NCBI GenBank assembly: GCA_965224165.1
Contig: CBDCYM010000011.1
Coordinates: 1,522,877-1,586,876 of the forward strand
Source: Methyloligellaceae bacterium
Lineage (GTDB): Bacteria; Pseudomonadota; Alphaproteobacteria; Rhizobiales; CBDCYM01
Reading direction: 5' to 3'
Length of the DNA: 64,000 nt
Shown here: positions 3,096-59,272 of the stretch, in pieces
Numbering within the stretch: position 1 is the stretch's first letter
Layout: each line of letters starts with the position of its first letter
Position numbers and translations under genes: made by a program
The notes under the pieces: model-generated
What the model was told of the DNA's origin: nothing
Database searches by the model: none
What the model saw: only the letters and a program-made list of their open reading frames with translations

Positions 3096-3340
3096 GGGGC
3101 GTGATGGCGTGTGTGACCCGATGATAACCGCAAAGTCAGCCCGAATATCGCTGCTATAGATGCAGCTAATAATTCAATGGCAAGGGCGTGGCGGAATTGC
3201 ATTTTTGGTGCTTGGAATAGATCTACTGCAAAGGTGTTCCAAGACCATAAAATCAGCACGCCGCTGACAAACAAAACGCCTATCGCCACAAGGATAGCTA
3301 TTGTCATCTTATAACCCTTATTATCAGTTTCTTCAGTCAT
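3092..3340 (-). CDS. small hypothetical membrane protein, 82 aa, two predicted TM helices
   Basis: The ORF shares start and stop overlaps with its neighbours, an operon-like arrangement, and is hydrophobic. There is no recognisable motif. Confidence 0.35.
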   Translation of the reverse strand: MTEETDNKGYKMTIAILVAIGVLFVSGVLILWSWNTFAVDLFQAPKMQFRHALAIELLAASIAAIFGLTLRLSSGHTRHHAP

Positions 3341-3794
3341 CTTGAGGTCCTTTCTCCTGTTCCTTAATAAGACTGTGGTTCAAAGTCGTGAGCGCCAATT
3401 CTGCCGCTTTTAGTGTTTCAAGCGGCAGCTCTTCAGCCAGCCGTTCAAGCACTTTGATTTCTCGTTTACGAATTGCAGCAAATGTATTTTTGCCCTTTTG
3501 TGTCAGGGCATAGAGCGGCGATCTTTTATGAGCCGGGTTTTGCAGGCGCTTGACAAAACCGCAGCTAAACAACTCGTCCATGTTGACTTGGATATGCTGA
3601 CGCGAAACGCCTTTGGGCCGAGCGATGTCAGGAACAGTGTGAGGCCCATCTTCCGCCAAGAACTCCATCACAGCTCTCATTGAAGCGCTTACGCCGATAT
3701 CCCTATGCATTTCGTCAGCAATGTTCTTGAGCCGATTAAAGCTTGTGCGGATCCGTGCAATGACGGCATATAATTTTTGTGCTTTCGGCGACAT
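3333..3794 (-). CDS. MarR family transcriptional regulator
   Basis: 153 aa with a winged-helix region (…VSRQHIQVNMDELFSCGFVKR…) typical of MarR, and a palindromic operator-like sequence immediately upstream. Confidence 0.75.
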   Translation of the reverse strand: MSPKAQKLYAVIARIRTSFNRLKNIADEMHRDIGVSASMRAVMEFLAEDGPHTVPDIARPKGVSRQHIQVNMDELFSCGFVKRLQNPAHKRSPLYALTQKGKNTFAAIRKREIKVLERLAEELPLETLKAAELALTTLNHSLIKEQEKGPQDD

Positions 3795-3810
3795 GACACA
3801 TCAGCCTCCT

Positions 3811-3857
3811 TATTGACAACAAGATTGTCATATATAAAATGACAACTTAATTGTCAA
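3811..3857. promoter_or_regulatory. Two adjacent inverted repeats of the form TGACAA-N4-TTGTCA (ATTGACAAcaagATTGTCAt and ATGACAACttaATTGTCAAT). These are candidate MarR operators in the marR promoter region.
   Basis: Read directly from the sequence 17-60 bp upstream of the marR start codon on the - strand. Confidence 0.4.
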
Positions 3858-3963
3858 TATGTGTGGAGTAACTATTTTGTCATGACCGTGAATTATCTAA
3901 GCGTAGATGAGACGACAGATATTTAGTGAGCAGAAAATTTTTGGCTATAATTATCGCTAATCG

Positions 3964-6900
3964 CTAATCGCTAAAAATGAATTCTTCTTCAGGCTCCGGC
4001 TCGCGTTTACGACGAGGAGGTCTCCGCCGGCGCTGAGTTGGTTGTTCAATAGTAATTGCATCCGCTGGTGTTTCAAGCAAATCCGTCGGCAATTTTTCTG
4101 GCGCTAAAATAGAATTTTCCGTCAAACCAGTTGGTGGCAACACCCCTTGAGGGAGGGGGTCTGCAGATTGTCCCGCACCTGTATTGGCGGGCTGTTGCTC
4201 GAATGTGGGCTGGCCGGTATTTGATTGTCCGGGAAGAATAAAACCACCTTGTCCGTTGCGTGGCGCTTCTTGCGGGATGCGTGGTATCTCTTGTGGGATA
4301 CGCGATGTCTCTTGTTGAATGCGCGGAGGTTCTTGAGGAATGCGAAGTGTTTCCTGTTGGATGCGAGGTGCCTCTTGCGGTATGCGTGCGGCGACCCCAT
4401 CTTCACGCAAAGCTTTCTGACGCTTTTCGCGTTGGCGTTGGCTCCAGTATTGTTGTTCTTCCCGTTCCTGCTTTTCTAAACTTTTTTGGATCTGTTCCAA
4501 TTTCTGAACATTTTGCTCTATTTTGCGGACGGTCAAAAAGCGTTCCAATGGTTTGGTATCGATTTGAGGTGTGAGTTGGCCAAATTGTGATAGGGGACCT
4601 GAAAAGGCGAGTGTGACAGGAGGTAGCTTTTCTGCACCTCCGGGAAGTGGCGCCAAGAGTTGCCAATCGCTACTAAGTTTTAGATTGGGAAGTTCCAAAG
4701 AACTTTTCACTTTCAGGTCTGTTTTGGCGGCGGTTAATTTGATCTGTTGCAACCGGATAACGCCATCGCGGATGACAAATGTTGTATTAAACGGTGATAC
4801 AGGAAATGTTCCGTCTTTGAATTTCTGAGGGAGGCGTGTCGATAAGTTCGGAGATTTATCTTTTGGGTCCCCCATGCTTTCCGCGGCGAGTTTGGATATG
4901 GCATAAGGTGAAAATCTCAAAATCTGGCCTTGACCGACAGAAAGTTTCCCTTTGCCCTGCAAAACAGATATGAGTCCGTGGGGGCTAAGCCCTTCACCAT
5001 TGACCGAAAAATCTAAATTGACAGTGCCGCGTGCCAAGGCTTTCCCTTGGTTGCCTTGTGTCAATGTGCCGAGTTTCGCCTGTTTGATGTGCCCAGCTCC
5101 AGTAAGCTTAAATCTGCCATTAGCGCGCATGAGCTGTCCGGTGGCGGAGAAATCGCCTCCATGTAATTTTCCCTTTAATGTTTTGAGATATAGCCCCCCT
5201 CCTGCAAGTTCGGCTGCTAAGGTACCACCTTTCAATTTAAGACCGCCACCGATATCAAATTTTTCGGCGTTCACGGCAATACGCCCCTGATATCCCTTCA
5301 GGACTTCTTTATCAAAAGGCTGGTTTGGCCAAAATGATGCTGATTGGTTGGCAACGGCGTTTGAAGCAATTTCCAATATGGATTTGTCTTTCCACTGAAC
5401 GACAAAGCCCAGAAGCGTAGGTAATGCCGCCTCGGTAGAGGTCATCGAAACATCAATACGGGCGGGGGTGGAGCTTGAATCAACGACTGCATTTCCTTGG
5501 AGACTGCCAGCCCCCAAACGTCCAGAAATATTGCTTAAACGGTAGGTATTCTTTGTCTTGTTTAGATCTGCCCGGATATTAAGAGCATCTTTCATATCAT
5601 TTGATGTATTGCCAAATCCAATCAAAGCCAAAGGAACCGCTGCCGTTTTTGATGAGACTTTTACGGTGCCGTCCATCTCTGTTATGTCACCGTCATCTGA
5701 CATTTGCACAAGCCCGTCAAAGTTGAACCGGGTGTCTGCGGCATCAAGGGAGAGAGTTGTTTTTACGCCTTTGTTTGGTACTCCATGCCCATGGAAGACG
5801 AGTCTTCCCGCACTCGAAGCCAGAGCATTTTTAGAAAGCGAAGCGGACGCCATTTGCCGGATCAGTTCTGCCCCTTTGGGGTTTTCAGCCGTCATGGAGA
5901 TATTTAAGGGCTTTGCACCCAAATCAGCAAACCTGCCTTCATGATGCATTTTGAGTGAAATATGGCTATCGGCCGCCATGCCATCGACTTTGAATTCAAA
6001 GCCAGAGCGTGTTTGGTTACCTGTATTGAGAGATCCAGCCAGTCTAAGAGGGCTAAGGGTTCTAAGGCGTTTTGGATTCTTTAAGAGAGCGCTCGGCAGT
6101 GCGATCATTTCACCAAGTTGATGAAGGGCTACCGCGCTCTCCGCCTCAACCATAAAATTAATGGCGCCTTTAGAGGCTGCATTTGATTGATCAATCTGTC
6201 CATCTGCACGGATTAAAATGCCATCCTCCGATGCCAGATGAAGCTTATTGATGGCAAGCCTGCCATCCTTCATTTGTAAGTCGGCATCCAAGTCGCGCCC
6301 ATTAAAGCCGGACATCAAAAGATGGCCTACCCGAAGTTTGATACGCGCATTAGCTTGATTTAGAAAATCCGCCGTGGAATTGCCATCTATAGTTGCTGCC
6401 CTTGCATTGGTAATCAGTTGGCGTTTTGATTGTTTTTGAAGCTGTTGCCCCCCGGTGTCGAGATATTTCTTAATGAGTTCCCGCGGTGAAGATTGGGGGC
6501 CCAATATATCGACAAGATTGAAGCGATCACCGTCAAGCGTGAGTTCGAAGTTTTTCTTATCACCAAACTCATAGTGTAAGGCGGCCGAGAAGGCTGATCC
6601 GGCGGCCTCCCCACGCAATTGTTTGACCCGAAGTGCGTTTGGCCTGAGGGTCAAATGCCCTTGTGCAAAATAATGCTCACTGCGCACTGCTTGGGGCTTT
6701 TCCCTTCGAGAAAGCGCCCAACGTGTCAGTAGTCCAAGGTTGCTCCCTCTCAAGGAAAACGGTCCTGAAAACGCAATGCCCTTCTCTCCGGCTTGAAGTT
6801 GACCATTTAAGTTCAACTCGCTAGCACCCGGAAGACCGGCACGCATGTTAGTAATCTTAAAAACATCGCCAGTCTTGGTCAGGCGTAGTTTAAAATTCCT

Positions 6901-22457: not shown

Positions 22458-22734
22458 TGGCTATTGATTGTTAAGTTATCCCCCGTAACCCCTGACTGTG
22501 ATTTAAGTTGTTGACCAATTGCTCCAAATCATGTGATTTGGCTTTAAATGCGGTTTTCGCCACGATCCCGCCGCCTTTGGGCTACAAAGGGGGAGTAGGT
22601 AGGTCATTCGGAAGGAATGCACTTTGTATTGCGGTGACCAACTAACAAATGAATACAACCGCAAGAAAAGTAGAAATTGAGTCTCCGTCCTCAAATTGTT
22701 TTTGTAATTGTTTGTTCGGGTTAGGTGTTATGTG

Positions 22735-23361
22735 ATGCGCATTATTTTTCTGCTTCTTATGGGGGCACTGCTGTCAGCTTGCTCTAATCAAGCAGAAACC
22801 GCTTCAAATTTTGGTCCCATATCACCTGAAAGCTCCTTTTCACTTAATAATATTTTTGGTGGATCGTCGGACAAAACCAAGAGGACCGCCAAAGGGTCAA
22901 AGCTTGCTGCTTGTGTTAATAAAAAGATATCTTCAACTAAACCAACAACACTGCTCGGGGGGCTTTTTGGCCAAATAAGCGCTGAAGGCATATCTAAAAC
23001 TGTGACGGTTGGCCCCGAAATTCTCACCGCTTATGTGACAACACTGTTCAAGGCTCATAAAGATGATCCCTCCAAAGTTCGTGCAAATATCATCAGTCAT
23101 CGAAAGATTGATAAGACCTGCTTCGACCGGCAAATCGCTTATTGGTCGTTAGAAAAAAAACAGGATGTACAGCCAACATCTGCCAGCGGACCATCCCCGC
23201 TTCTTACAGGTGTTGAAGCAGCCGAGCAATATAAGCGTTCGCAAGATTTACTAATGCAGCTTTATGATAAGCTCGTAATATATATCAGTGATTCAAATGT
23301 TAACGTGGTCTCAGAACGAATCGCTCGTGATTACGTACCAACTTTGATTGAGCTGTTCTAA
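22735..23361 (+). CDS. hypothetical lipoprotein. Start taken at MRIIFLL…, while the longest ORF begins at 22708.
   Basis: Signal peptide plus lipobox LLSAC|S. No recognisable domain. Confidence 0.5.
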   Translation: MRIIFLLLMGALLSACSNQAETASNFGPISPESSFSLNNIFGGSSDKTKRTAKGSKLAACVNKKISSTKPTTLLGGLFGQISAEGISKTVTVGPEILTAYVTTLFKAHKDDPSKVRANIISHRKIDKTCFDRQIAYWSLEKKQDVQPTSASGPSPLLTGVEAAEQYKRSQDLLMQLYDKLVIYISDSNVNVVSERIARDYVPTLIELF

Positions 23362-30403: not shown

Positions 30404-31279
30404 TCAGGACGCAAATAAATAGTCTCTATACTCAGCGAAATCGGATTTAGCCGAACCACACCAAAACAAACTTGGCCAATTCACTAAGTACAGACAATTT
30501 TCACTCATAAATGACTCAATTTCTGGCTCAATCTCATCAACATTAGCGTTTTCTGCTTCCCTCAAGTTGAGGGCAATAATATTGCCGGAAACGTCTACTT
30601 GCCCCCACAACAACCAACCTGATTGCGTCTCAAGCGCAAAACCGTTGACTATAGCTGCCGCAATATTATTGAAAGCCACGCCAGAGAAAGTCCTTTTAAT
30701 TGAAAAAAGATGTTTTATCCGGTCAAAATGGAGGAACTTATCACGAAGAGGCTCTTTTATTATTTTTCGCACATGTATTTGATTAAAACCAATACCTTCT
30801 CTGTGATTTTCATATATCGACTTAATCGCTTTCATTTCCTCGTCAATTGATGAGTTAAAACTGTTGGATATAAACTCAAATTGCCTCCAATCATCTTCTA
30901 AAACAATCAAGGCATCTTCCAATGATATTTTGGCCTCCTTAACTGCTGCGATGTCATCATTTATCGTAGGCAAACTGAACAAGACTGTATTCGGGTCAAT
31001 ATCAAGGATTTCAACCTTTACGAGGGATAATTTTAGATTTCCGGATTTTATGAATTCAGATTTCTTCGGCGGCGATGCATTCAGAACACGCCAATCCTGA
31101 TCCGCCAAATTTATTGTCGTTTGAATTTCGAAGGTATCTGGAAGATCATCTACGGCAATGTTTGATACGGCAAACGGTTGAGAATTATCCCCCTCAAAAA
31201 ATTCTACTTTTATTTCATTCGGATTATTTTTAGATTCAAACATGACAGCTCCAAAAGTCAGGCATTCATAATTAAACAA
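30404..31279 (-). CDS. hypothetical acidic protein, 291 aa, AT-rich (GC clearly below the surrounding genes)
   Basis: Long clean ORF convergent with 29520..30386. Asp/Glu/Asn-rich. No recognisable domain. Confidence 0.45.
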   Translation of the reverse strand: MFNYECLTFGAVMFESKNNPNEIKVEFFEGDNSQPFAVSNIAVDDLPDTFEIQTTINLADQDWRVLNASPPKKSEFIKSGNLKLSLVKVEILDIDPNTVLFSLPTINDDIAAVKEAKISLEDALIVLEDDWRQFEFISNSFNSSIDEEMKAIKSIYENHREGIGFNQIHVRKIIKEPLRDKFLHFDRIKHLFSIKRTFSGVAFNNIAAAIVNGFALETQSGWLLWGQVDVSGNIIALNLREAENANVDEIEPEIESFMSENCLYLVNWPSLFWCGSAKSDFAEYRDYLFAS

Positions 31280-32939: not shown

Positions 32940-33232
32940 CTTTCCTAAACAGGTCACCGGAGGCTTGACCTCGACACGTCATGTGCGGGCCCTTGCTTGA
33001 GGTGCTGCGAGCCCGCCCGCGCCACAAGCACCGCGAGACGAACGCACTCTGGGGCCCGAAGGCCCAGAGCCGCTCATCCGGCAGACCTGTGCGCCAGGCT
33101 TCGCGCAGCACCGGTATCCGCAAGGGCACAAAGCCCATGTCGTGCCTGCCACAATCCGGGTACTCATTTTGGCCGAAGCCGCCACGAGCACCTATCATGT
33201 GGCGTGAGCCCAAACCTCCGGCTCCCCAATAA
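32940..33232 (-). ncRNA. candidate structured ncRNA of about 290 nt. It is GC-rich with two C(UUCG)G tetraloop hairpins on the - strand. Its identity is unknown.
   Basis: GC is about 64% against a local 45-50%. No protein-like ORF is present; the six-frame ORFs here are Arg/Pro-rich and overlap on both strands. On the - strand there are hairpins gggcc-TTCG-ggccc and ggc-TTCG-gcc. The ends are complementary (gccggagg … cctccggt). Confidence 0.35.
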
Positions 33233-33279
33233 GTATTTGAGCCAGATTATCAGTCTGGTCCAGGTTATGAGCCTGGTCG

Positions 33280-33351
33280 ATCAGATAGAAGGAATCGAAC
33301 CTTCGTCCCATTGGGGGAAACCCAATTGCTCTACCTCTGAGCTATATCCGA
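33280..33351 (-). tRNA. tRNA-like cloverleaf, 72 nt, with an aberrant anticodon arm (6-bp stem with a 5-nt loop, or loop GUUUCCC reading UUC). Possibly a tRNA pseudogene or tRNA-derived element.
   Basis: Reverse complement is TCGGATATAGCTCAGAGGTAGAGCAATTGGGTTTCCCCCAATGGGACGAAGGTTCGATTCCTTCTATCTGAT. D-arm and T-arm are canonical (TAGCTCAGAGGTAGAGC; GAAGGTTCGATTCCTTC). The acceptor stem has a G3·U70 wobble and no CCA is encoded. The anticodon loop is not a canonical 7-nt loop with a purine at position 37. Confidence 0.4.
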
Positions 33352-33806: not shown

Positions 33807-35840
33807 ATGGGAAAAGTAGGCGATCTTTTCGCAAGATTAGAAGAAAAAATGGAACAAGCTCCGATCAGCCGCCGCGGGTCGAAAAAAGGCCGGGAGGGTG
33901 AAGCAAAATATACGGCTGCCGATATTGAGGTGCTCGAAGGGCTGGAACCCGTGCGCCGCCGTCCTGGCATGTATATTGGTGGCACGGATGAAAAGGCGCT
34001 GCATCATCTCTTTGCCGAAGTTATCGATAATTCCATGGATGAAGCCGTTGCCGGGCATGCGAGTTGGATTGAGGTTGCGTTGGACAAAGACGGCTGGTTG
34101 ACGGTAACGGACAATGGCCGGGGTATTCCTGTTGACCCTCATCCAAAATATAAAAAGAAATCCGCTCTTGAAGTCATTATGACCACGCTGCATGCAGGCG
34201 GAAAATTCAACTCTAAGGTTTATGACACATCAGGCGGTTTGCATGGCGTTGGCGTTTCGGTGGTCAATGCCCTTTCCGAAAAGCTTGAGGTTGAGGTTGC
34301 GCGCGATAAGCAGCTTTACCGGCAAATCTACAGTCGTGGCAAACCGCAAGGAGCGCTTAAAAAGCTAGGATCTATAAAGAATCGCCGTGGTACCAAAATC
34401 CGCTTCAAACCGGATGAGAAAATCTTCGGCAAAAAAGCGGCTTTTAAGCCTTCGCGATTATTCCGCATGGCGCGATCCAAAGCCTATCTCTTCGGCGGTG
34501 TGGAAATTCGTTGGTCCTGTGCGCCAAGCCTCATTGACGCGAAAGATGAGACACCGCCGCAAGCGGTTTTTCATTTTCCGGGAGGTCTAAAGGACTTCTT
34601 GGCGTCGCGCATTGAAGGGCGGACATATGTTGCCCGCGATGCTTTCTTTGGCAAACACAACCAGGATGGCGGTCATGGTTCCGTGGAATGGGCCATCGCT
34701 TGGATTGGCGATGCGGACGGCTTTTTAAACTCTTATTGTAACACTGTGCCGACGGCTGACGGCGGCACGCATGAAGCCGGATTGCGCGCTGCTCTCACCA
34801 AAGGGTTGAGGGCCTATGGTGAGCTAACGGGCAATAAAAAGGCGGCGCAGATAACGGCTGATGACGTTTTGTCTTCCGCTGCGGCTATGCTCTCAGTTTT
34901 CATTCGGGAACCAGAGTTTCAAGGCCAAACAAAGGATAAACTCGCCACGCAGGAGGCGGCTCGTATTGTCGAGAGCACGCTGCGCGATGCATTTGATCAT
35001 TGGCTGACGGCGAGCCCTCAGCAAGCGAACAAACTCTTGGAATGGGTTATTGACCGCTCAGAAGAACGCCTGCGCCGCCGTCGCGAAAAAGAAGTAAACC
35101 GTAAAACCGCGGCCCGCAAACTGCGTCTGCCTGGGAAACTTGCTGATTGTTCAAAGTCGGCAAAGGATGGAACGGAAATTTTTATCGTTGAGGGGGACTC
35201 AGCTGGTGGTTCAGCCAAACAGGCGCGCAATCGTGCGACCCAAGCCGTCTTGCCTCTGCGTGGCAAAATTCTAAACGTTGCCAATGCCAGCTCCGCCAAG
35301 CTTGCGCAAAACCAGCTTTTGTCGGACCTCATTCAGGCTTTGGGCTGTGGAATGGGAACAAGTTACCGGGATGATGATTTGCGCTACGAGAAGGTTATCA
35401 TCATGACCGACGCCGATGTGGACGGTGCCCATATTGCGTCTCTACTCATCACCTTTTTTTACCGGCAAATGCCGGAACTCATCGAAAATGGCCATCTTTA
35501 TCTAGCCGTGCCGCCGCTTTATAAAATTACGCAAGGCGCTAAATCGGTCTATGCCCGTGATGATGCGCACAAAGATAGTTTGCTTGAGAGCGATTTTACA
35601 GGGCGCGGTAAGATCGAAATTTCCCGCTTTAAAGGCCTTGGTGAAATGATGCCGGCCCAGCTTAAAGAAACCACCATGAATCCGGAGACGCGCATTCTGC
35701 TTCGTGTTGAAGTGGATGAAGATGATCGCACCCAAACCTCAAAAGCAGTTGATCAACTTATGGGAAATAAGCCGGAAGCGCGCTTTAAGTTTATCCAGGA
35801 CAATGCTGAATATGTCAGTGGTGAGGAGCTGGATATTTAA
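33807..35840 (+). CDS. parE: DNA topoisomerase IV subunit B
   Basis: GHKL ATPase, TOPRIM and GyrB C-terminal motifs. The 677-aa length is the ParE size (short against GyrB, about 800 aa). Confidence 0.88.
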   Translation: MGKVGDLFARLEEKMEQAPISRRGSKKGREGEAKYTAADIEVLEGLEPVRRRPGMYIGGTDEKALHHLFAEVIDNSMDEAVAGHASWIEVALDKDGWLTVTDNGRGIPVDPHPKYKKKSALEVIMTTLHAGGKFNSKVYDTSGGLHGVGVSVVNALSEKLEVEVARDKQLYRQIYSRGKPQGALKKLGSIKNRRGTKIRFKPDEKIFGKKAAFKPSRLFRMARSKAYLFGGVEIRWSCAPSLIDAKDETPPQAVFHFPGGLKDFLASRIEGRTYVARDAFFGKHNQDGGHGSVEWAIAWIGDADGFLNSYCNTVPTADGGTHEAGLRAALTKGLRAYGELTGNKKAAQITADDVLSSAAAMLSVFIREPEFQGQTKDKLATQEAARIVESTLRDAFDHWLTASPQQANKLLEWVIDRSEERLRRRREKEVNRKTAARKLRLPGKLADCSKSAKDGTEIFIVEGDSAGGSAKQARNRATQAVLPLRGKILNVANASSAKLAQNQLLSDLIQALGCGMGTSYRDDDLRYEKVIIMTDADVDGAHIASLLITFFYRQMPELIENGHLYLAVPPLYKITQGAKSVYARDDAHKDSLLESDFTGRGKIEISRFKGLGEMMPAQLKETTMNPETRILLRVEVDEDDRTQTSKAVDQLMGNKPEARFKFIQDNAEYVSGEELDI

Positions 35841-36209
35841 CTACTGGCTCTCCGGCCCTCTATAGACGCATCCCTCCTGACAAGAATCGCGCGACACTGC
35901 AATTTCAGCTAAGCCAGGGAATTCACCTTCAAGCCTCTTCCATAGCCACTTGGTAATGTGCTCCAAAGTCGGGAGTTCAAGCCCTGGAATATCGTTTAGG
36001 TAGCGATGGTCAAGCTCTGCACGAGCCTTGTTCAACGCTTTGGTCATCTCATCGAAATGCACAATAACACCGGTTTCAGGGTCCGGTTCACCATCAATGG
36101 TAACGCGCACGCGGAATGAGTGCCCATGCATCCGGGCATTGGGATGGCCTTCCGCGGCGGTTGGCAGCAAATGGGCCGCCTCAATATGAAATTCCTTATA
36201 GATACGCAT
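35841..36209 (-). CDS. queD: 6-carboxy-5,6,7,8-tetrahydropterin synthase
   Basis: Begins MRIYKEFHIEAAHLLP… with the Zn-binding His/Glu pattern of QueD. Start taken at the internal Met of ORF 35841..36269. Confidence 0.85.
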   Translation of the reverse strand: MRIYKEFHIEAAHLLPTAAEGHPNARMHGHSFRVRVTIDGEPDPETGVIVHFDEMTKALNKARAELDHRYLNDIPGLELPTLEHITKWLWKRLEGEFPGLAEIAVSRDSCQEGCVYRGPESQ

Positions 36210-36372
36210 GGAATGCTCTTTATGCGATTTTTGCGTCCGCGTCACCCTGGCAAATTTACGCAATGACATTTATAAGACGGCAATAATCTTAGCTTATGAG
36301 CTAATGTTATAGGGTCTTGCGGACTAAGTCCTATTTGCCCGTTTCACAATTGGACGTTATTGCTGTCTGGCA

Positions 36373-37026
36373 TTACGCAATGCCGATGAGCTTATGGGTC
36401 TGCAGGCTTAAACGCCATTGGGGATGCGCAAGGCAATAGCGGATTGCAACACGGGTATTCTCTTCTTTTAAGGCGTTATCCATCGGCTGCAAAAAGAAAT
36501 GATCAAAGCTCAACGCGCTCACTTCTTCGGGGCTTATACCATCTTGAGGGTAAACAAGCTTAAGTTCATTGCCGGATGTTTGAACAAGGTCTGCTCCTGC
36601 TTTCGGGCTCACGCAAATCCAATCAATGTCACGGGGAACAGGCAATGTCCCGTTTGTCTCAATGGCAATCTCGAATCCGACGTCATGAAGGGCGGTAATC
36701 AGCTTTTCGTCAATCTGTAACATTGGCTCACCGCCAGTGAGGACGACAAAGGGCGTACCCGGCCGATCATCCCATATGTTTTTACATGCCAAAGCTAAAT
36801 CTTGGGCCGCCTTAAATTGACCACCACCCGGTCCGTCCGTGCCAACAAAATCCGTATCACAAAACGAGCAGACGGCACCTTCACGGTCTTCCTCCCGGCC
36901 TGACCAAAGATTGCATCCCGCGAAGCGACAGAATACTGCCGACCGGCCTGTATTGGCCCCTTCACCTTGCAAGGTATGATAGATTTCTTTGACTGAGTAC
37001 ATATTCTGAAACTGCAACAACCTCAC
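36373..37026 (-). CDS. queE: 7-carboxy-7-deazaguanine synthase (radical SAM); the true start may be the Met at 37002
   Basis: …LQGEGANTGRSAVFCRFAGCNLWSG… with the QueE-type Cys cluster, about 210 aa, immediately upstream of queD on the same strand. Confidence 0.8.
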   Translation of the reverse strand: MRLLQFQNMYSVKEIYHTLQGEGANTGRSAVFCRFAGCNLWSGREEDREGAVCSFCDTDFVGTDGPGGGQFKAAQDLALACKNIWDDRPGTPFVVLTGGEPMLQIDEKLITALHDVGFEIAIETNGTLPVPRDIDWICVSPKAGADLVQTSGNELKLVYPQDGISPEEVSALSFDHFFLQPMDNALKEENTRVAIRYCLAHPQWRLSLQTHKLIGIA

Positions 37027-37128
37027 CTAATAGGTAAAGGTTAAATTCTTGCCAGCCAAATTTTTTCGCCTATTGCAGCGCAGGTTGTTATTGCCGTTTG
37101 ATAAAGCACGTTATTTGACTGGCACAGT

Positions 37129-37443
37129 CTAAGTCGAAACCTCATGTAAAGGTGTCAACGACTTCTGATCGATTTTACGCTGAGCATGCCACAGATCGTG
37201 AGCGTTTTGCATTTTAAGCCAACTCTCGGGCGAGCGCCCAAAAACAATGCTCATGCGAACAGCCATTTCAGGCGTGACCGCTTGTTCTTCATTGAGCAGA
37301 TCATAGAGGGTTTGCCGCGAAACACCTAAAGCCCGCGCGATCGCTGCTTTGGACACATCAAGCGCAGGCAAAATAATTTCATGCAAAATCTTACCAGGAT
37401 GTGCTGGGCATCGATTTGGGCTTCTGAGTAATTTTTTTGTCAT
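37129..37443 (-). CDS. higA: HigA-type antitoxin (XRE-family HTH)
   Basis: HTH sequence AAIARALGVSRQTLYDLLNEEQAVTPEMAVRMS. Start chosen at the Met preceded by GGAGGTGGTG. It lies directly downstream of higB. Confidence 0.8.
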   Translation of the reverse strand: MTKKLLRSPNRCPAHPGKILHEIILPALDVSKAAIARALGVSRQTLYDLLNEEQAVTPEMAVRMSIVFGRSPESWLKMQNAHDLWHAQRKIDQKSLTPLHEVST

Positions 37444-37465
37444 GGCACCACCTCCAACACAATAC

Positions 37466-37744
37466 TTAGTGGTAGTCTTCAAGGTCGATAGCAATTGCAT
37501 CTCCATCTTCCCAGGCAAAGGTTACCCTCCAGTTACCCTGCACGTCCACAGCATAACGACCTTTCATATTACCTTTAAGGGGATGAAAATTCAGGCCAGG
37601 AACATTCATGTCTTCCGGCACGATACTTGTGTCCAACAAATCAAGGATCATTGCGATTTTATCGACCCATTCAGGGGAGAGTTTGCTGGCATCGTCTTTC
37701 TCCCAAAAACGGCGGAGACGCCGACTCTGAAACGAAACAATCAT
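37466..37744 (-). CDS. higB: HigB-type toxin (RelE/ParE superfamily mRNA interferase, 'plasmid maintenance system killer')
   Basis: 92 aa. The N-terminal RRLRRFWEK… and C-terminal …GRYAVDVQGNWRVTFAWEDGDAIAIDLEDYH are typical of HigB. It is the upstream partner of the HTH antitoxin. Confidence 0.8.
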   Translation of the reverse strand: MIVSFQSRRLRRFWEKDDASKLSPEWVDKIAMILDLLDTSIVPEDMNVPGLNFHPLKGNMKGRYAVDVQGNWRVTFAWEDGDAIAIDLEDYH

Positions 37745-37884
37745 TGTTATATTGCCCCCGCAATTCTGTTTGTGACATCGTCATCCCCATATTTCCCCAC
37801 CGTATTTCTATTTGTAAGGAGAGTCTTTACACATGTCAAGTGATGGCTGACATTGTTGTTGCTTTGAATTAGGAATAGAACCAA

Positions 37885-38604
37885 TTAGGCTCTGCTTGCC
37901 TTCGCCCCCTGCTCCCACCAAGCCTGAAACCCCTTCGCACGTAACTCGCAAGCCGGACATGTTGCACACCCATAGCCCCATACGTGGCGTTCCGTACGTA
38001 CACCATTATAGCAACTGTGGGTGTGTTCAACGATGAGATCAATGAGATCTTGCCCACCAAGTTCTTCAGTCAAAGCCCAAGTTGCCGCTTTATTGTGCCA
38101 CATCAGGGGCGTTTCGATGTGGAATTCTGTATCCGTTCCTAGATTGATGGCTTTCGCGAGAGTTAGCAAAGTATCGTTTCGGCAATCAGGATAGCCGGAA
38201 TAATCTGTTTCACACATACCGCCCACTAGGGTTTTGATATCCCGTCGGTAACCTAGCGCTGCGGCATAGGTAAAAAACAAAAGGTTTCGCGCAGGAACAA
38301 ATGTGTTGGGCAGGCCTGCTTGGCTCATCTCGATTTCAACATTCCGGGTGAGGGCGGTATCTGAAATCTGCCCTAACGCGGTCAGGTTTAATAGGTGATC
38401 CCGACCAAGCTTCGCAGTCCAGTTCGGAAATTGCTTTTTTAGGGCAGTTAAAATCACGTTGCGGCACTCAAGCTCAATCTTATGGCGTTGGCCATAATCG
38501 AAGCCGATAGTTTCAACGGCCTTATAACGGTTTAAAGCCCAAGCAAGGCATATTGTTGAATCTTGGCCCCCAGAAAAGAGAACAAGTGCCTTATCGCCTA
38601 TCAT
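37885..38604 (-). CDS. queC: 7-cyano-7-deazaguanine synthase
   Basis: PP-loop motif [14 protein letters not shown] and C-terminal Zn-binding cysteines (CATCPAC). Confidence 0.9.
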
Positions 38605-38916
38605 GGAACATTATCCTGTACTTACGAAATCCTGTACTTACGGACAATTAACTTCTATCAAGCTCATACCATATACCCGTGGTATTTCTGGTCAAAAAAA
38701 TGACCGAAGAGCATTCAAGCGCTATGCGGGCTTATACGCCAAAAGGCGCGATGTGCGGTCGACCTTGTCAATGGTTCATGAAACAAACTCAAACACCATT
38801 GGTATAAATCATATGGTTTGCAGTTTCAGGTGAGATGTTGACGAATCGTTAACTTTGAGAAGCTAGAAATAAAAAGGTTTTTTAAGTTTTCCAGTAGTTT
38901 GCGTAATTAAGAGACC

Positions 38917-39255
38917 ATGCCAGTTCAAGAGCGTTCTAAACATTTTTCAAGCATTCTTTTTCTGCTCGTTTCATTGGGGCTGATTTCCTATTTTATCTAC
39001 CATGCCCTTCAAGGGAATCACGGATTAAAGGCGCGAACACATCTCAAATGGCGTGTCGAAAGGCTAGAGCGTCAACACGCTGAGCTAAGCAAACTACGTA
39101 CGCAAATTGAACGTGATGTAGCACTCCTAAAGCCGGAAAAAATTGATCCGGACATGCTAGATCAACAAGCGCGAAAACTTCTCAATATCGTGCATTCCGA
39201 TGATATAATTATCCTGAGGCCGAGAGTGAAAAAAGAAAAGGCAGTGATGCCCTAA
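38917..39255 (+). CDS. ftsB: septum formation initiator (FtsB/DivIC family)
   Basis: N-terminal TM helix followed by a coiled coil, 112 aa. It sits directly upstream of pdhA, as is conserved in alphaproteobacteria. Confidence 0.65.
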   Translation: MPVQERSKHFSSILFLLVSLGLISYFIYHALQGNHGLKARTHLKWRVERLERQHAELSKLRTQIERDVALLKPEKIDPDMLDQQARKLLNIVHSDDIIILRPRVKKEKAVMP

Positions 39256-48094: not shown

Positions 48095-49387
48095 TTAATT
48101 GAAGTTATTTTTTTGCGTCATTCGATTGTGCGAGGAATTCATGAGCCAGCGGATCAAAAAACGTCGCGTGCCAGAATAAAAAATCTCATGGCCACCTTGT
48201 TCCAGTCCAAAGGATAGTTTCTCCGGATCGTCCCTCCAAAACTTAGAGATTTCTTTCACGGCCGCTTCAGCACTGCCAGATCTTGGCTGGTCTTGTGCTC
48301 CAGCCTCAAGAAAGAATGGACGGGGTGCGATGAGCCAGGCAAAACGTTCATGATCAAATTCCGGTAAAAAGCCAAAATTATTCGCCCAAATTCCGTGAGG
48401 GAACTTCCAATATGCGTGTTTTGCATATTGGTGTTTTCTCCCTATCCATTTGTGTACGAAATTTTGGAAGAATTGGCTGACAACAACAACATCAATTGTT
48501 TTATCAATAGCTGAAAGGTAGAGGGCGACTTGGCCGCCTAGGCTGATCCCGTAAGTGCCGGTGTTTGCAGAAGGAATGTTGAGATGATTCCTTAGGGCAT
48601 TGAGAGCGCTCGAGATGGCACCGATCTCAAGCCCAATCAACCTTAGGCCGGAACTCATTATTCGGCGGTCCACCTTATCGCGGAACTCATTAGACTTAAA
48701 AACTTTGTGCCTTTTTAACTGCGTAATGATGTACGGAGCGAAAACTGTAAAACCATCCTGTACAAGTTTGCTTCCAAGTTCCTTATGGTAATCTTTAAGT
48801 TTATAATCTGAGGGTTTTTCAAGTCCGAAAAGAAACTCTGGACTCCCCGCTGTTCCATGCACAGCAACCACAAGCGGAGAGGTGGGTAAACTTTTCTTTT
48901 TATATCCGAGTAAACCAGCTAATCTGAATTGGCTCATGCAAACTTCAAATTCAAGATATTCGATTTTCACATCCTGGGTTTCATATATTTTTCTCTTTGA
49001 AATAATCCGTGCAGAATTATTATGCGCTCGTTGAACTGGTATTGATGGAATGCAAGAAGCTGGGACACCCATTCGTTTCATTAGGATTTGACGAGCATCT
49101 GTTTTCGAGCCACTAATTTTTTCCCTTTTCTCAACTTCAATCTTATTTGCTTCTTTATCCATATACTCGTGGATTGAGTCATAAAAAATGTTTGCCCCTA
49201 ATGTCATTGCAAACTCGGGCTTTTGTGGTTTTAATAGATTTCTATACTTAATTTTTTCAGTGGTGCGGCCGATGAAAAAACCGAGACAGGAACAAATGAT
49301 AAGACTCAACAATAGCCCGGCTATTTTTTTGTTACGCGGATTAATCACAATATTCTCCTGCTTTACAGGCCGGTACGATTTAATCAA
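48095..49387 (-). CDS. alpha/beta hydrolase (esterase/lipase-like) with an N-terminal membrane anchor, in an AT-rich gene
   Basis: GxSxG motif GISLGGQVAL, N-terminal TM (LLLSLIICSCLGFFIG), and low GC against its neighbours. Confidence 0.5.
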   Translation of the reverse strand: MIKSYRPVKQENIVINPRNKKIAGLLLSLIICSCLGFFIGRTTEKIKYRNLLKPQKPEFAMTLGANIFYDSIHEYMDKEANKIEVEKREKISGSKTDARQILMKRMGVPASCIPSIPVQRAHNNSARIISKRKIYETQDVKIEYLEFEVCMSQFRLAGLLGYKKKSLPTSPLVVAVHGTAGSPEFLFGLEKPSDYKLKDYHKELGSKLVQDGFTVFAPYIITQLKRHKVFKSNEFRDKVDRRIMSSGLRLIGLEIGAISSALNALRNHLNIPSANTGTYGISLGGQVALYLSAIDKTIDVVVVSQFFQNFVHKWIGRKHQYAKHAYWKFPHGIWANNFGFLPEFDHERFAWLIAPRPFFLEAGAQDQPRSGSAEAAVKEISKFWRDDPEKLSFGLEQGGHEIFYSGTRRFLIRWLMNSSHNRMTQKNNFN

Positions 49388-58744: not shown

Positions 58745-59272
58745 ATGAGTTCAATTGTATTTATCGGAATTTTGGTTTTACTTCTAGCTGCAGCGGATTT
58801 TTCTGGCTGGTTTTCCAGAATTGAAATCTTTTTGAACCGGCTTAGCTTGAAATCACAAGCTTTTTTCAAATGGACTAAGAGTTTTATATCTCTCATTTGG
58901 ACGAATGAATTCGGCGATTGGGTCTTCAAAATTTGGATATACGGTTTCATTTTATCAGCAATTATTATGATGGGAGTTGTCATAGTAAAAGGTCCAGTTG
59001 GAATATCATTAAATGATGACAACTCATCTTTTGTAATAAATTTGCTTATATACTTCTATTATGCATTCGGAATTTTCTTGCTGGTCAATATATACTTCGT
59101 TATTGCTGTGTATCTTTTAATCTATCCTGCGACAGTTATTCTTTCTTGGCTTGTAAAAGCGTTCCATTTTATGAGTAAAGCCCCTAGAGGAATTGTTAGC
59201 AGAGCAGCCTTAGTTTTGGCTTTGGCCGTCTTTTTAGGTCGGTTTGTTTTTAGTCAGCTAATATTTATTTGA
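58745..59272 (+). CDS. hypothetical integral membrane protein, 175 aa, AT-rich
   Basis: Four or five hydrophobic helices. GC is clearly lower than dnaE. It is followed by palindromic repeat copy 3. Confidence 0.4.
   Translation: MSSIVFIGILVLLLAAADFSGWFSRIEIFLNRLSLKSQAFFKWTKSFISLIWTNEFGDWVFKIWIYGFILSAIIMMGVVIVKGPVGISLNDDNSSFVINLLIYFYYAFGIFLLVNIYFVIAVYLLIYPATVILSWLVKAFHFMSKAPRGIVSRAALVLALAVFLGRFVFSQLIFI

What the first reader, a model, noticed from the sequence alone, without database searches (positions are those of the whole stretch)
37129..37744. higB-higA toxin-antitoxin pair inserted inside the queuosine-precursor operon queC-[higBA]-queE-queD
queC, queE and queD are normally contiguous. 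Here a 92-aa RelE/ParE-superfamily HigB toxin and a 104-aa HTH HigA antitoxin (toxin first, the hig-type order) sit between queC and queE on the same strand, with 22 bp between the two TA genes. A ribosome-dependent mRNA interferase embedded in and co-transcribed with the genes that make the tRNA wobble modification preQ1/queuosine is an unusual coupling. It is a candidate case of TA domestication or of an insertion that now shares que operon regulation.
Basis: partly seen in the sequence, partly recalled or inferred. Interest (0 to 1): 0.6.

Follow-up and report, generated by a model that had tools for sequence, protein, structure and literature searches.

The report
HigBA toxin-antitoxin cassette splitting queC-queE
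An intact, apparently self-regulated HigB/HigA toxin-antitoxin cassette sits between two queuosine-precursor genes that are adjacent in most related bacteria; nothing found here links the toxin to queuosine, so it looks like an ordinary mobile-cassette insertion.

Summary
On the minus strand the order is queC (37885-38604), higB (37466-37744, 92 aa), higA (37129-37443, 104 aa), queE (36373-37026) and queD (35841-36269), with 22 nt between higB and higA.

- **Toxin:** HigB aligns without gaps over its full length with the solved Proteus vulgaris HigB. It keeps H54, R73, D90, Y91 and H92.
- **Antitoxin:** HigA is a canonical HTH HigA with a strong GGAGG ribosome-binding site.
- **Own promoter and operators:** The cassette has a perfect TTGACA -35 inside one palindrome and a second palindrome over the -10. 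This two-operator motif recurs upstream of homologous higBA pairs (39/76, against 0.04 in shuffles).
- **Relatives without the cassette:** Syntenic relatives (pdhB-pdhA-ftsB <> queC-queE-queD) have queC and queE 3-45 nt apart and no higBA. None of 82 loci with a HigB homologue carries que genes.
- **A variable junction:** 7 of 22 relatives with queC upstream of queE have other genes between queC and queE.
- **Cassette habit:** About a third of family members sit between two genes on their own strand.
- **Composition:** Base composition and codon use match the rest of the window. No close relative of the host genome exists, so the insertion cannot be dated.

Verdict: a new member of a known kind. 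Any functional coupling to queuosine is unsupported. Interest is low.

The parts
37885..38604 (-). queC (7-cyano-7-deazaguanine synthase), 239 aa. First gene of the string.
   Evidence: PF06508 222.9 bits; TIGR00364 193 bits against a cut-off of 150.3.
38668..38695 (-). Candidate sigma-70-type promoter upstream of queC (TTGACC, 16 nt, TATGGT).
   Evidence: Consensus scan, 9/12 matches. The total number of promoter-like sites in the region is not above shuffles, so this is only a candidate.
37833..37853 (-). Operator-like palindrome O1, ATGTCAGCCATCACTTGACAT. Its right arm is a perfect -35 hexamer TTGACA (37834-37839).
   Evidence: Read from the sequence. The pattern TGTMA-N9-TKACA occurs 4 times in 64 kb against 0.21 expected, and two of the four are adjacent here. 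The same motif is in 39/76 upstream regions of homologous higBA pairs against 0.04 in shuffles. L094 has a near-identical site, ATGTCAGCCAGCGATTGACAT.
37811..37831 (-). Operator-like palindrome O2, TGTAAAGACTCTCCTTACA (37813-37831). It overlaps the candidate -10 hexamer TACAAA (37811-37816), which lies 17 nt after the -35.
   Evidence: The layout matches that of L097, TTGACTTGTGTAAGGAATTGCCTTACACT. It also matches the P. vulgaris Phig arrangement, where O1 lies over the -35 and O2 over the -10 (PMC12266136).
37745..37810 (-). Predicted higB leader of about 60 nt, with a G-rich Shine-Dalgarno-like GGGGG 12 nt before the ATG.
   Evidence: Read from the sequence. No significant fold, z -0.35. The closest relatives L081 and L083 also have long leaders. 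Most of the family has TTGAC at -33 to -38 from the ATG, which implies a leaderless mRNA.
37466..37744 (-). higB, 92 aa, a RelE/ParE-superfamily ribosome-dependent mRNA endonuclease toxin.
   Evidence: PF05015 57.9 bits. Full-length, gap-free alignment to P. vulgaris HigB 4mct_B, E 1.5e-14. H54, K57, N71, R73, D90, Y91 and H92 are conserved; their roles are described in PMC5027501. dN/dS 0.07 against the closest homologue, L081.
37451..37455 (-). GGAGG ribosome-binding site, 7 nt before the higA ATG.
   Evidence: Read from the sequence. It is stronger and better spaced than the higB site, as expected if the antitoxin is made in excess (inference).
37129..37443 (-). higA, 104 aa, an HTH-XRE antitoxin and autorepressor.
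   Evidence: TIGR02607 96.1 bits against a cut-off of 47.7; PF01381. Matches solved GraA (6f8s_A, 3e-15), P. aeruginosa HigA (6jpi) and P. vulgaris HigA (4mcx_A, 1e-9). A HigA homologue lies directly after HigB in 76 of 82 homologous loci.
37027..37128 (-). higA-queE spacer. It has a 12-bp stem (37050-37061 with 37113-37124) around a 51-nt loop, and no U-tract.
   Evidence: Inverted repeat I7. RNA fold -38 kcal/mol, z -3.0. No canonical terminator. No similar sequence in any fetched locus or elsewhere in the window.
36373..37026 (-). queE (7-carboxy-7-deazaguanine synthase, Cx14CxxC type). The start is uncertain: GTG at 37026 or ATG at 37002.
   Evidence: TIGR04508 353.9 bits against a cut-off of 240.
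35841..36269 (-). queD (6-carboxytetrahydropterin synthase). The likely start is the internal ATG at 36209. Its 3' end abuts the 3' end of the convergent parE gene.
   Evidence: PF01242 101.5 bits; TIGR03367 83.3 bits, just under the 89.25 cut-off. ORF table.

Best explanation
A complete hig-type type II toxin-antitoxin cassette inserted into the queC-queE intergenic spacer in this lineage. The cassette consists of its own promoter, two HigA operators, a leader, higB and higA. The surrounding block, ftsB-pdhAB <> queC-queE-queD, is otherwise conserved.

**How the module works (by homology with P. vulgaris HigBA).** HigB enters the ribosomal A site and cleaves mRNA. A HigA dimer binds and neutralises HigB. 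Through its HTH domains HigA also sits on the two palindromes over the -35 and -10 hexamers and represses Phig. The better ribosome-binding site of higA favours an excess of antitoxin.

**Effect on the que genes (inferred).** No terminator is evident on either side. Transcripts from the queC promoter therefore probably read through higBA into queE-queD, and Phig probably adds a second input to queE-queD. I regard this as a by-product of where the cassette landed, not an evolved coupling to queuosine.

**What is shown:** gene identities, intact catalytic and HTH features, operator conservation across the family, absence of the cassette from syntenic relatives, and absence of any recurrent que association.

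**What is inferred:** toxicity, neutralisation, operator binding and co-transcription.
For: - **Identity and integrity:**, with residue roles from PMC5027501. dN/dS is 0.07 against the closest homologue.
- **Own promoter and operators:**. The architecture is the same as in P. vulgaris, with O1 over the -35 and O2 over the -10 (PMC12266136).
- **Insertion:** L002, L005, L022 and L050 share pdhB-pdhA-ftsB next to queC-queE-queD, with queC-queE 16-39 nt apart by tblastn coordinates. The closest QueC relatives (72% identity, L163-L166) have queC-queE-queD(-queF) with gaps of 0-4 nt between queC, queE and queD.
- **Mobility and no que link:** The nearest HigB homologues sit in unrelated contexts. 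These are a 2-hydroxyacid dehydrogenase, and an acyltransferase with a 5'-3' exonuclease. 524 plasmid records carry homologues. None of 82 homologue loci has que genes.
- **Read-through plausible:** no terminator-like site in either spacer. Only 2 of 69 family members have one after higA.
Against: - No close relative of the host genome exists in the collections. The best QueC match is 72% and the best HigB match is 76-77%. The 'empty site' is therefore seen only at roughly family-level distance, and the time of insertion is unknown.
- GC, GC3 and codon use of higBA cannot be told apart from the other genes of the window: GC 47.3% against 49.1 ± 3, and 62nd percentile for codon log-likelihood. 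There is thus no compositional sign of foreign origin.
- No flanking target duplication or mobile-element gene explains how it arrived.
- The -10 hexamer is weak (TACAAA), and the simple promoter scan did not report this site.
A closer relative that carries the cassette could have been missed.
- Nothing functional has been tested.
Confidence: 0.8

Rival explanations
1. Co-opted regulator. The cassette is an old fixed resident, and its HigA-controlled promoter and operators now gate queE-queD transcription. Phig would add transcripts when HigA is degraded, and bound HigA would block read-through from PqueC. Queuosine-precursor synthesis would then follow the state of the TA module.
For: Same strand, with no predicted terminators. 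The operators lie only about 31 nt after the queC stop codon. Composition matches the other genes of the window. The higA-queE spacer is structured, z -3.0. higB is under purifying selection.
Against: The association is unique. None of 82 HigB-homologue loci has que genes and none of 80 QueE loci has higBA. The junction accepts unrelated genes in other lineages. Co-directional insertion is a habit of the family. No known link exists between HigB codon preference and Q-decoded NAY codons (own knowledge).
Confidence: 0.08
2. Anti-phage (abortive-infection) module. The higBA pair is kept because it limits phage replication, and its chromosomal position is irrelevant.
For: The module is intact, under purifying selection and autoregulated. 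Homologues are widespread on plasmids and in varied chromosomal contexts. Type II TA systems are known to act in phage defence (own knowledge).
Against: No other defence genes were noticed nearby. The neighbours identified are housekeeping genes: parE, ftsB and pdhAB. No experimental data exist. This reading concerns what the module is kept for and is compatible with the best explanation of how it works.
Confidence: 0.1
3. Decaying remnant. The pair is a non-functional leftover of an old insertion that happens still to have open reading frames.
For: The higB ribosome-binding site is weak and poorly spaced, and the -10 hexamer is weak. Composition is fully host-like.
Against: Both ORFs are full length relative to solved homologues. 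All catalytic residues and all family-invariant residues are kept. Both operators are intact. higA has a strong ribosome-binding site. dN/dS is 0.07 on the path to the nearest homologue.
Confidence: 0.02

Closest known systems
Proteus vulgaris plasmid Rts1 HigB-HigA (PDB 4MCT/4MCX; Phig with operators O1 and O2)
   Same: Toxin-first gene order. The protein lengths are identical (92 and 104 aa). HigB aligns end to end without gaps and keeps H54, K57, N71, R73, D90, Y91 and H92. HigA is an HTH protein. Two palindromic operators of about 21 bp lie over the -35 and -10 hexamers.
   Different: HigB identity is only 37%. The HigA here is closer to GraA and P. aeruginosa HigA than to P. vulgaris HigA (E 3e-15 against 1e-9). 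This cassette is chromosomal, not plasmid-borne. Its operator half-sites are TGTMA/TKACA; they were not compared with the P. vulgaris operator sequence. A leader of about 60 nt follows the promoter.
Pseudomonas putida GraT-GraA and P. aeruginosa HigBA (PDB 6F8S, 6F8H, 6JPI, 7CSV)
   Same: These are the best solved matches for the antitoxin, at E 3e-15 to 1.5e-13 over residues 12-90. They are chromosomal hig-type modules with a palindromic operator.
   Different: GraT matches the toxin only weakly (E 5.7e-5, C-terminal part only). GraT has a disordered N-terminus with a regulatory role (PMC6393540 title and abstract), and no such extension is present here.
Alphaproteobacterial and metagenomic HigBA clade (e.g. 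Propylenella binzhouense P0011/L082; L081, L094, L097)
   Same: 52-76% HigB identity in the named examples, with HigA directly downstream. The promoter and TGTMA-N9-TKACA operator motif are shared.
   Different: These cassettes sit in unrelated genomic contexts, never with que genes. Most have the -35 hexamer at -35 from the ATG, which implies a leaderless mRNA. The window, L081 and L083 have long leaders.

Membership tests
hig-type (HigBA) type II toxin-antitoxin system | The toxin gene precedes the antitoxin gene in one short operon. | tested here: met
   higB 37744-37466, then a 22-nt gap, then higA 37443-37129, on the same strand.
hig-type (HigBA) type II toxin-antitoxin system | The toxin belongs to the HigB family of the RelE/ParE superfamily. 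| tested here: met
   PF05015 57.9 bits against a cut-off of 27. Full-length match to P. vulgaris HigB structures, E 1.5e-14.
hig-type (HigBA) type II toxin-antitoxin system | Catalytic residues His54, Asp90, Tyr91 and His92 (plus Arg73) are present. | tested here: met
   All are present at the same positions. Their roles are described in PMC5027501.
hig-type (HigBA) type II toxin-antitoxin system | The antitoxin is an HTH (XRE/Cro-C1) protein of the HigA family. | tested here: met
   TIGR02607 96.1 bits against a cut-off of 47.7; PF01381 34.8 bits against 23. Matches solved HigA and GraA structures.
hig-type (HigBA) type II toxin-antitoxin system | An autoregulated promoter with palindromic operators overlapping the -35 and -10 hexamers. 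| tested here: met
   This was tested at sequence level only. Two adjacent TGTMA-N9-TKACA palindromes overlap TTGACA and TACAAA. The motif is enriched across the family, 39/76 against 0.04 in shuffles. Binding by HigA cannot be tested here.
hig-type (HigBA) type II toxin-antitoxin system | The toxin arrests growth and the cognate antitoxin neutralises it; mRNA cleavage depends on the ribosome. | not testable with these tools
   This needs expression assays and in vitro cleavage assays.
preQ0/queuosine precursor operon (queC-queE-queD) | QueC, QueE and QueD equivalogs lie together on one strand. | tested here: met
   QueC TIGR00364 193 bits against 150.3. QueE TIGR04508 353.9 bits against 240. 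QueD reaches Pfam PTPS 101.5 bits against 22.4 but TIGR03367 only 83.3 bits against 89.25, slightly under the cut-off.
preQ0/queuosine precursor operon (queC-queE-queD) | A known que regulatory RNA (preQ1 riboswitch) lies upstream. | tested here: not met
   No Rfam match in 35700-39000 even at E <= 5, and none at gathering threshold in the whole window.
Integron gene cassette (attC-bounded), as for the Vibrio cholerae higBA cassettes | An attC site with outer core sites RYYYAAC ... GTTRRRY at the ends of an imperfect inverted repeat, downstream of the cassette. | tested here: not met
   The only inverted repeat after higA (37050-37061 with 37113-37124) has no such core sites at its outer ends, as read from the sequence. 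The window was not searched for an integrase.

The most novel reading that the evidence does not exclude
The inserted cassette may have rewired the operon. The HigA-bound operators lie 31 nt after the queC stop codon and could block read-through from the queC promoter. Phig could then drive queE-queD whenever HigA is degraded. Synthesis of the queuosine precursor, and with it decoding of NAY codons, would become a stress-responsive output of a toxin-antitoxin switch.
Probability: 0.06. Interest if true: 0.55.

Novelty: new member of a known kind. Interest (0 to 1): 0.2.

Why it matters
As it stands, this is one more chromosomal HigBA module, landed in an intergenic site that tolerates insertions.

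It has modest value in two ways. First, it is a clean natural example of a TA cassette splitting an operon whose genes are otherwise tightly packed. Second, it shows that this HigBA clade travels with a conserved two-operator promoter. In most members that promoter is placed so that higB would be transcribed without a leader.

It would matter more only if experiments showed that queE/queD expression or tRNA queuosine levels depend on the state of the TA module.

Tried and rejected
- **Exact-sequence look-ups.** The window's HigB and QueE, and P0001, were not on record. The host stays unidentified beyond 'a single 4.23-Mb contig, Hyphomicrobiales-like relatives'.
- **Empty site in a close relative.** None exists. 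The best QueC match is 72% and the best QueE match is 71%.
- **Target-site duplications or terminal repeats around the cassette.** Only short matches at chance level were found.
- **Similarity of the two spacers to anything fetched.** None beyond the operator region.
- **Terminators.** None in the spacers, and rare in the family.
- **Known RNA families or a preQ1 riboswitch.** None.
- **A structured higB leader.** None, z -0.35.
- **A compositional signature of foreign origin.** None.
- **A second hig copy in the window.** None.
- **attC or integron cassette.** Core sites are absent.
- **The que genes as part of a 7-deazaguanine DNA-modification or Qat defence system.** Rejected. The equivalog scores are canonical, QatC scores 15 bits against a cut-off of 280, and the neighbours are housekeeping genes.
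- **Literature.** No paper in the searched library reports a TA pair inside a que operon.

Full report
**What is there.** The ORF table and sequence show five minus-strand genes in a row:
- queC, 37885-38604
- higB, 37466-37744 (92 aa)
- higA, 37129-37443 (104 aa, ATG preceded by GGAGG at 37451-37455)
- queE, 36373-37026
- queD, 35841-36269

The higB-higA gap is 22 nt, as reported. The queC-higB spacer is 140 nt and the higA-queE spacer is 102 nt. The flanks are housekeeping genes. parE (33807-35840) is convergent with queD, and ftsB/DivIC (38917-39255), pdhA and pdhB are divergent from queC.

**Family assignments.**
- HigB: PF05015, 57.9 bits (cut-off 27).
- HigA: TIGR02607, 96.1 bits (cut-off 47.7).
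- QueC: TIGR00364, 193 bits (cut-off 150.3).
- QueE: TIGR04508, 353.9 bits (cut-off 240).
- QueD: Pfam PTPS, 101.5 bits (cut-off 22.4), though it falls just under the TIGR03367 cut-off.

**Is the TA pair intact?** HigB aligns over all 92 residues, without a gap, to the solved Proteus vulgaris (Rts1) HigB, at E 1.5e-14. In an alignment with 24 database homologues and the P. vulgaris protein, the invariant or nearly invariant columns include H54, N71, R73, D90, Y91 and H92, and the window protein has all of them. These are the residues shown experimentally to be critical (H54, D90, Y91, H92) or contributory (R73) for mRNA cleavage on the ribosome (PMC5027501).

HigA matches solved GraA, P. aeruginosa HigA, E. 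coli CFT073 HigA and P. vulgaris HigA over its HTH core. Against the closest homologue with DNA available (L081, 76% identity), higB has dN 0.14 and dS about 2, giving dN/dS 0.07. This indicates purifying selection, although dS is near saturation. higA has a well-placed GGAGG. higB has only a GGGGG 12 nt before its ATG. That difference fits an excess of antitoxin, which is an inference.

**Own promoter and operators.** Reading the minus strand after the queC stop codon gives:
- 31 nt of spacer
- ATGTCAGCCATCACTTGACAT (37853-37833), a 6+9+6 palindrome whose right arm is a perfect -35 hexamer TTGACA
- TGTAAAGACTCTCCTTACA (37831-37813), a second palindrome whose right arm runs into TACAAA, which lies 17 nt after the -35 hexamer
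- a leader of about 60 nt, then the higB ATG

The generic pattern TGTMA-N9-TKACA occurs four times in the 64-kb window against 0.21 expected, and two of the four are these adjacent sites.

The motif belongs to the cassette family. Among 76 upstream regions of homologous higBA loci, 69 contain TTGAC (8.7 in shuffles). Of the 76, 39 contain at least one such palindrome (0.04 in shuffles) and 10 contain two. L094 has an almost identical O1, and L097 has the same -35/O2/-10 layout. This architecture matches that described for P. vulgaris Phig, with O1 over the -35 and O2 over the -10, each an inverted repeat bound by a HigA dimer (PMC12266136).

In most relatives TTGAC lies at -33 to -38 from the ATG, which implies leaderless higB transcripts. 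The window and its closest relatives (L081, L083) instead have leaders of 60-115 nt. The window's leader shows no significant structure.

**Is it an insertion?** The host genome is represented once, as a 4,226,890-bp contig. It has no close relative in any collection searched. The best QueE match is 71%, the best QueC match is 72%, and the best HigB match is 76-77% on contigs of 0.8-2.4 kb. The comparison is therefore at roughly family level.

- Four relatives (L002, L005, L022, L050) share the synteny pdhB-pdhA-ftsB next to queC-queE-queD. In them queC and queE are 16-39 nt apart, and there is no higBA.
- The closest QueC relatives (L163-L166) have queC-queE-queD-queF, with gaps of 0-4 nt between queC, queE and queD.
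- Overall, of 25 alphaproteobacterial-type loci, 15 have queC-queE contiguous, 3 have another gene order, and 7 have something else in the junction.
- That 'something else' is a conserved 84-85-aa ORF with no Pfam match, a Vut_1 (YhhQ-type) transporter on the opposite strand, an SDR, an AraC regulator, or a sulfotransferase.

So the ancestral state was most likely contiguous and the higBA pair is a lineage-specific insertion. The junction is also demonstrably tolerant of insertions.

**Is there any recurring link to queuosine?** None was found. The 80 QueE-anchored loci contain no HigB or HigA homologue. Of the 82 HigB-anchored loci, 76 have HigA immediately downstream and none has queC, queE or queD. 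The nearest homologues lie next to a 2-hydroxyacid dehydrogenase (L081), or between an acyltransferase and a 5'-3' exonuclease (L082, Propylenella). Homologues below 60% identity occur on 524 plasmid records from many genera.

Roughly a third of family members with enough flank lie between two genes on their own strand, often with short gaps. Being embedded in a gene string is therefore a habit of the cassette, not a peculiarity of this locus. No paper in the searched library reports a TA pair in a que operon.

**Age and origin.** GC (47.3%), GC3 (46.4%) and synonymous-codon log-likelihood (62nd percentile of 588-nt chunks from the window's genes) are all typical of the window's other genes. 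No target-site duplication, terminal repeat or mobility gene flanks the cassette. The spacers resemble nothing else fetched. The insertion is either old enough to have taken on host composition or came from a donor of similar composition. With so little sequence and a genome of weak codon bias, this test has low power.

**Transcription.** No terminator-like site lies in either spacer, and only 2 of 69 family members have one after higA. The higA-queE spacer does fold better than shuffles: -38 kcal/mol, z -3.0, with a 12-bp stem around a 51-nt loop. It has no U-tract and no attC-like core sites. No Rfam family, including the preQ1 riboswitches, matches the region even at E <= 5.

The most economical reading is that PqueC transcripts run through higBA into queE-queD and that Phig adds to them. 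Bound HigA might also impede read-through. All of this is inference and needs transcript mapping.

**Verdict.** The 'domestication or coupling with queuosine' reading has no support. The element is a new member of a well-known kind (HigBA), carrying the family's standard autoregulatory architecture. Interest is low (0.2). The residual novel possibility, TA-gated expression of queE-queD, has a probability of about 6%.

Noticed in passing
window 32955-33227 (minus strand), just downstream of tRNA-Glu(TTC) at 33279-33351: A GC-rich non-coding stretch of about 270 nt (61% GC against 48% for the window) folds into one long rod-like imperfect hairpin. The MFE is -185 kcal/mol, z -7.9 against 100 shuffles. 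It has no Rfam match even at E <= 1 and no plasmid match. It could be an unknown structured RNA or a palindromic mobile remnant at a tRNA gene.
   Followed up: partly
window 38613-38626 and 38629-38642 (minus strand), the queC 5' leader: An exact tandem 14-nt repeat, CGTAAGTACAGGAT x2, with 16 nt start to start, ends 8 nt before the queC ATG. These are the only two copies in the window, against 0.12 expected. It may be a regulator binding site or a duplicated Shine-Dalgarno region.
   Followed up: partly
window 37027-37128 (minus strand), the higA-queE spacer: A 12-bp stem (37050-37061 with 37113-37124) encloses 51 nt. The RNA fold has z -3.0. It is not a canonical terminator and is not repeated elsewhere in the window. 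A second 12-nt inverted repeat (37806-37817 with 37869-37880), also with 51 nt between its arms, brackets the hig operators. This is probably coincidence.
   Followed up: partly
loci L084-L162 (upstream of higB homologues): In most members of this HigBA clade the TTGAC -35 element lies 33-38 nt before the higB ATG. The mRNA would then start at or next to the start codon and be leaderless. The window, L081 and L083 are exceptions, with leaders of 60-115 nt.
   Followed up: partly
L009 5729-5983, L059 5735-5989, L019 3491-3748; also the contig of P0089: A conserved ORF of 82-85 aa with no Pfam match (MASRRELIRAIDLALSGQWEDAHK...) lies directly after queC in several Hyphomicrobiaceae-like genomes. 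It is sometimes followed by a Vut_1/YhhQ transporter on the opposite strand. It is absent from the window. It may be an uncharacterised que-associated protein.
   Followed up: partly
contig of P0089 (JGI 3300043331), gene 3286-4005: A 239-aa protein with both HTH_3/HTH_31 and QueF Pfam hits, apparently an HTH-QueF fusion, lies near queC and a Vut_1 transporter.
   Followed up: no
L099 1-1794 (soil metagenome contig): A homologous higBA cassette directly abuts a 29-codon parE-like fragment (residues 372-400). A separate parE 3' end lies about 860 nt away on the other side. The order is inconsistent with one intact gene, so this is either a rearrangement or a chimeric assembly.
   Followed up: partly
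window 30404-31279 (-), 58745-59272 (+), 48095-49387 (-), 22708-23361 (+): Four ORFs of 175-430 aa have below-average GC (34-43%) and no Pfam match at E <= 0.001. They may be accessory or orphan genes.
   Followed up: no
window 35840/35841: The stop codons of the convergent genes parE (ends 35840) and queD (ends 35841) abut with no intergenic base, which leaves no room for terminators between them.
   Followed up: no
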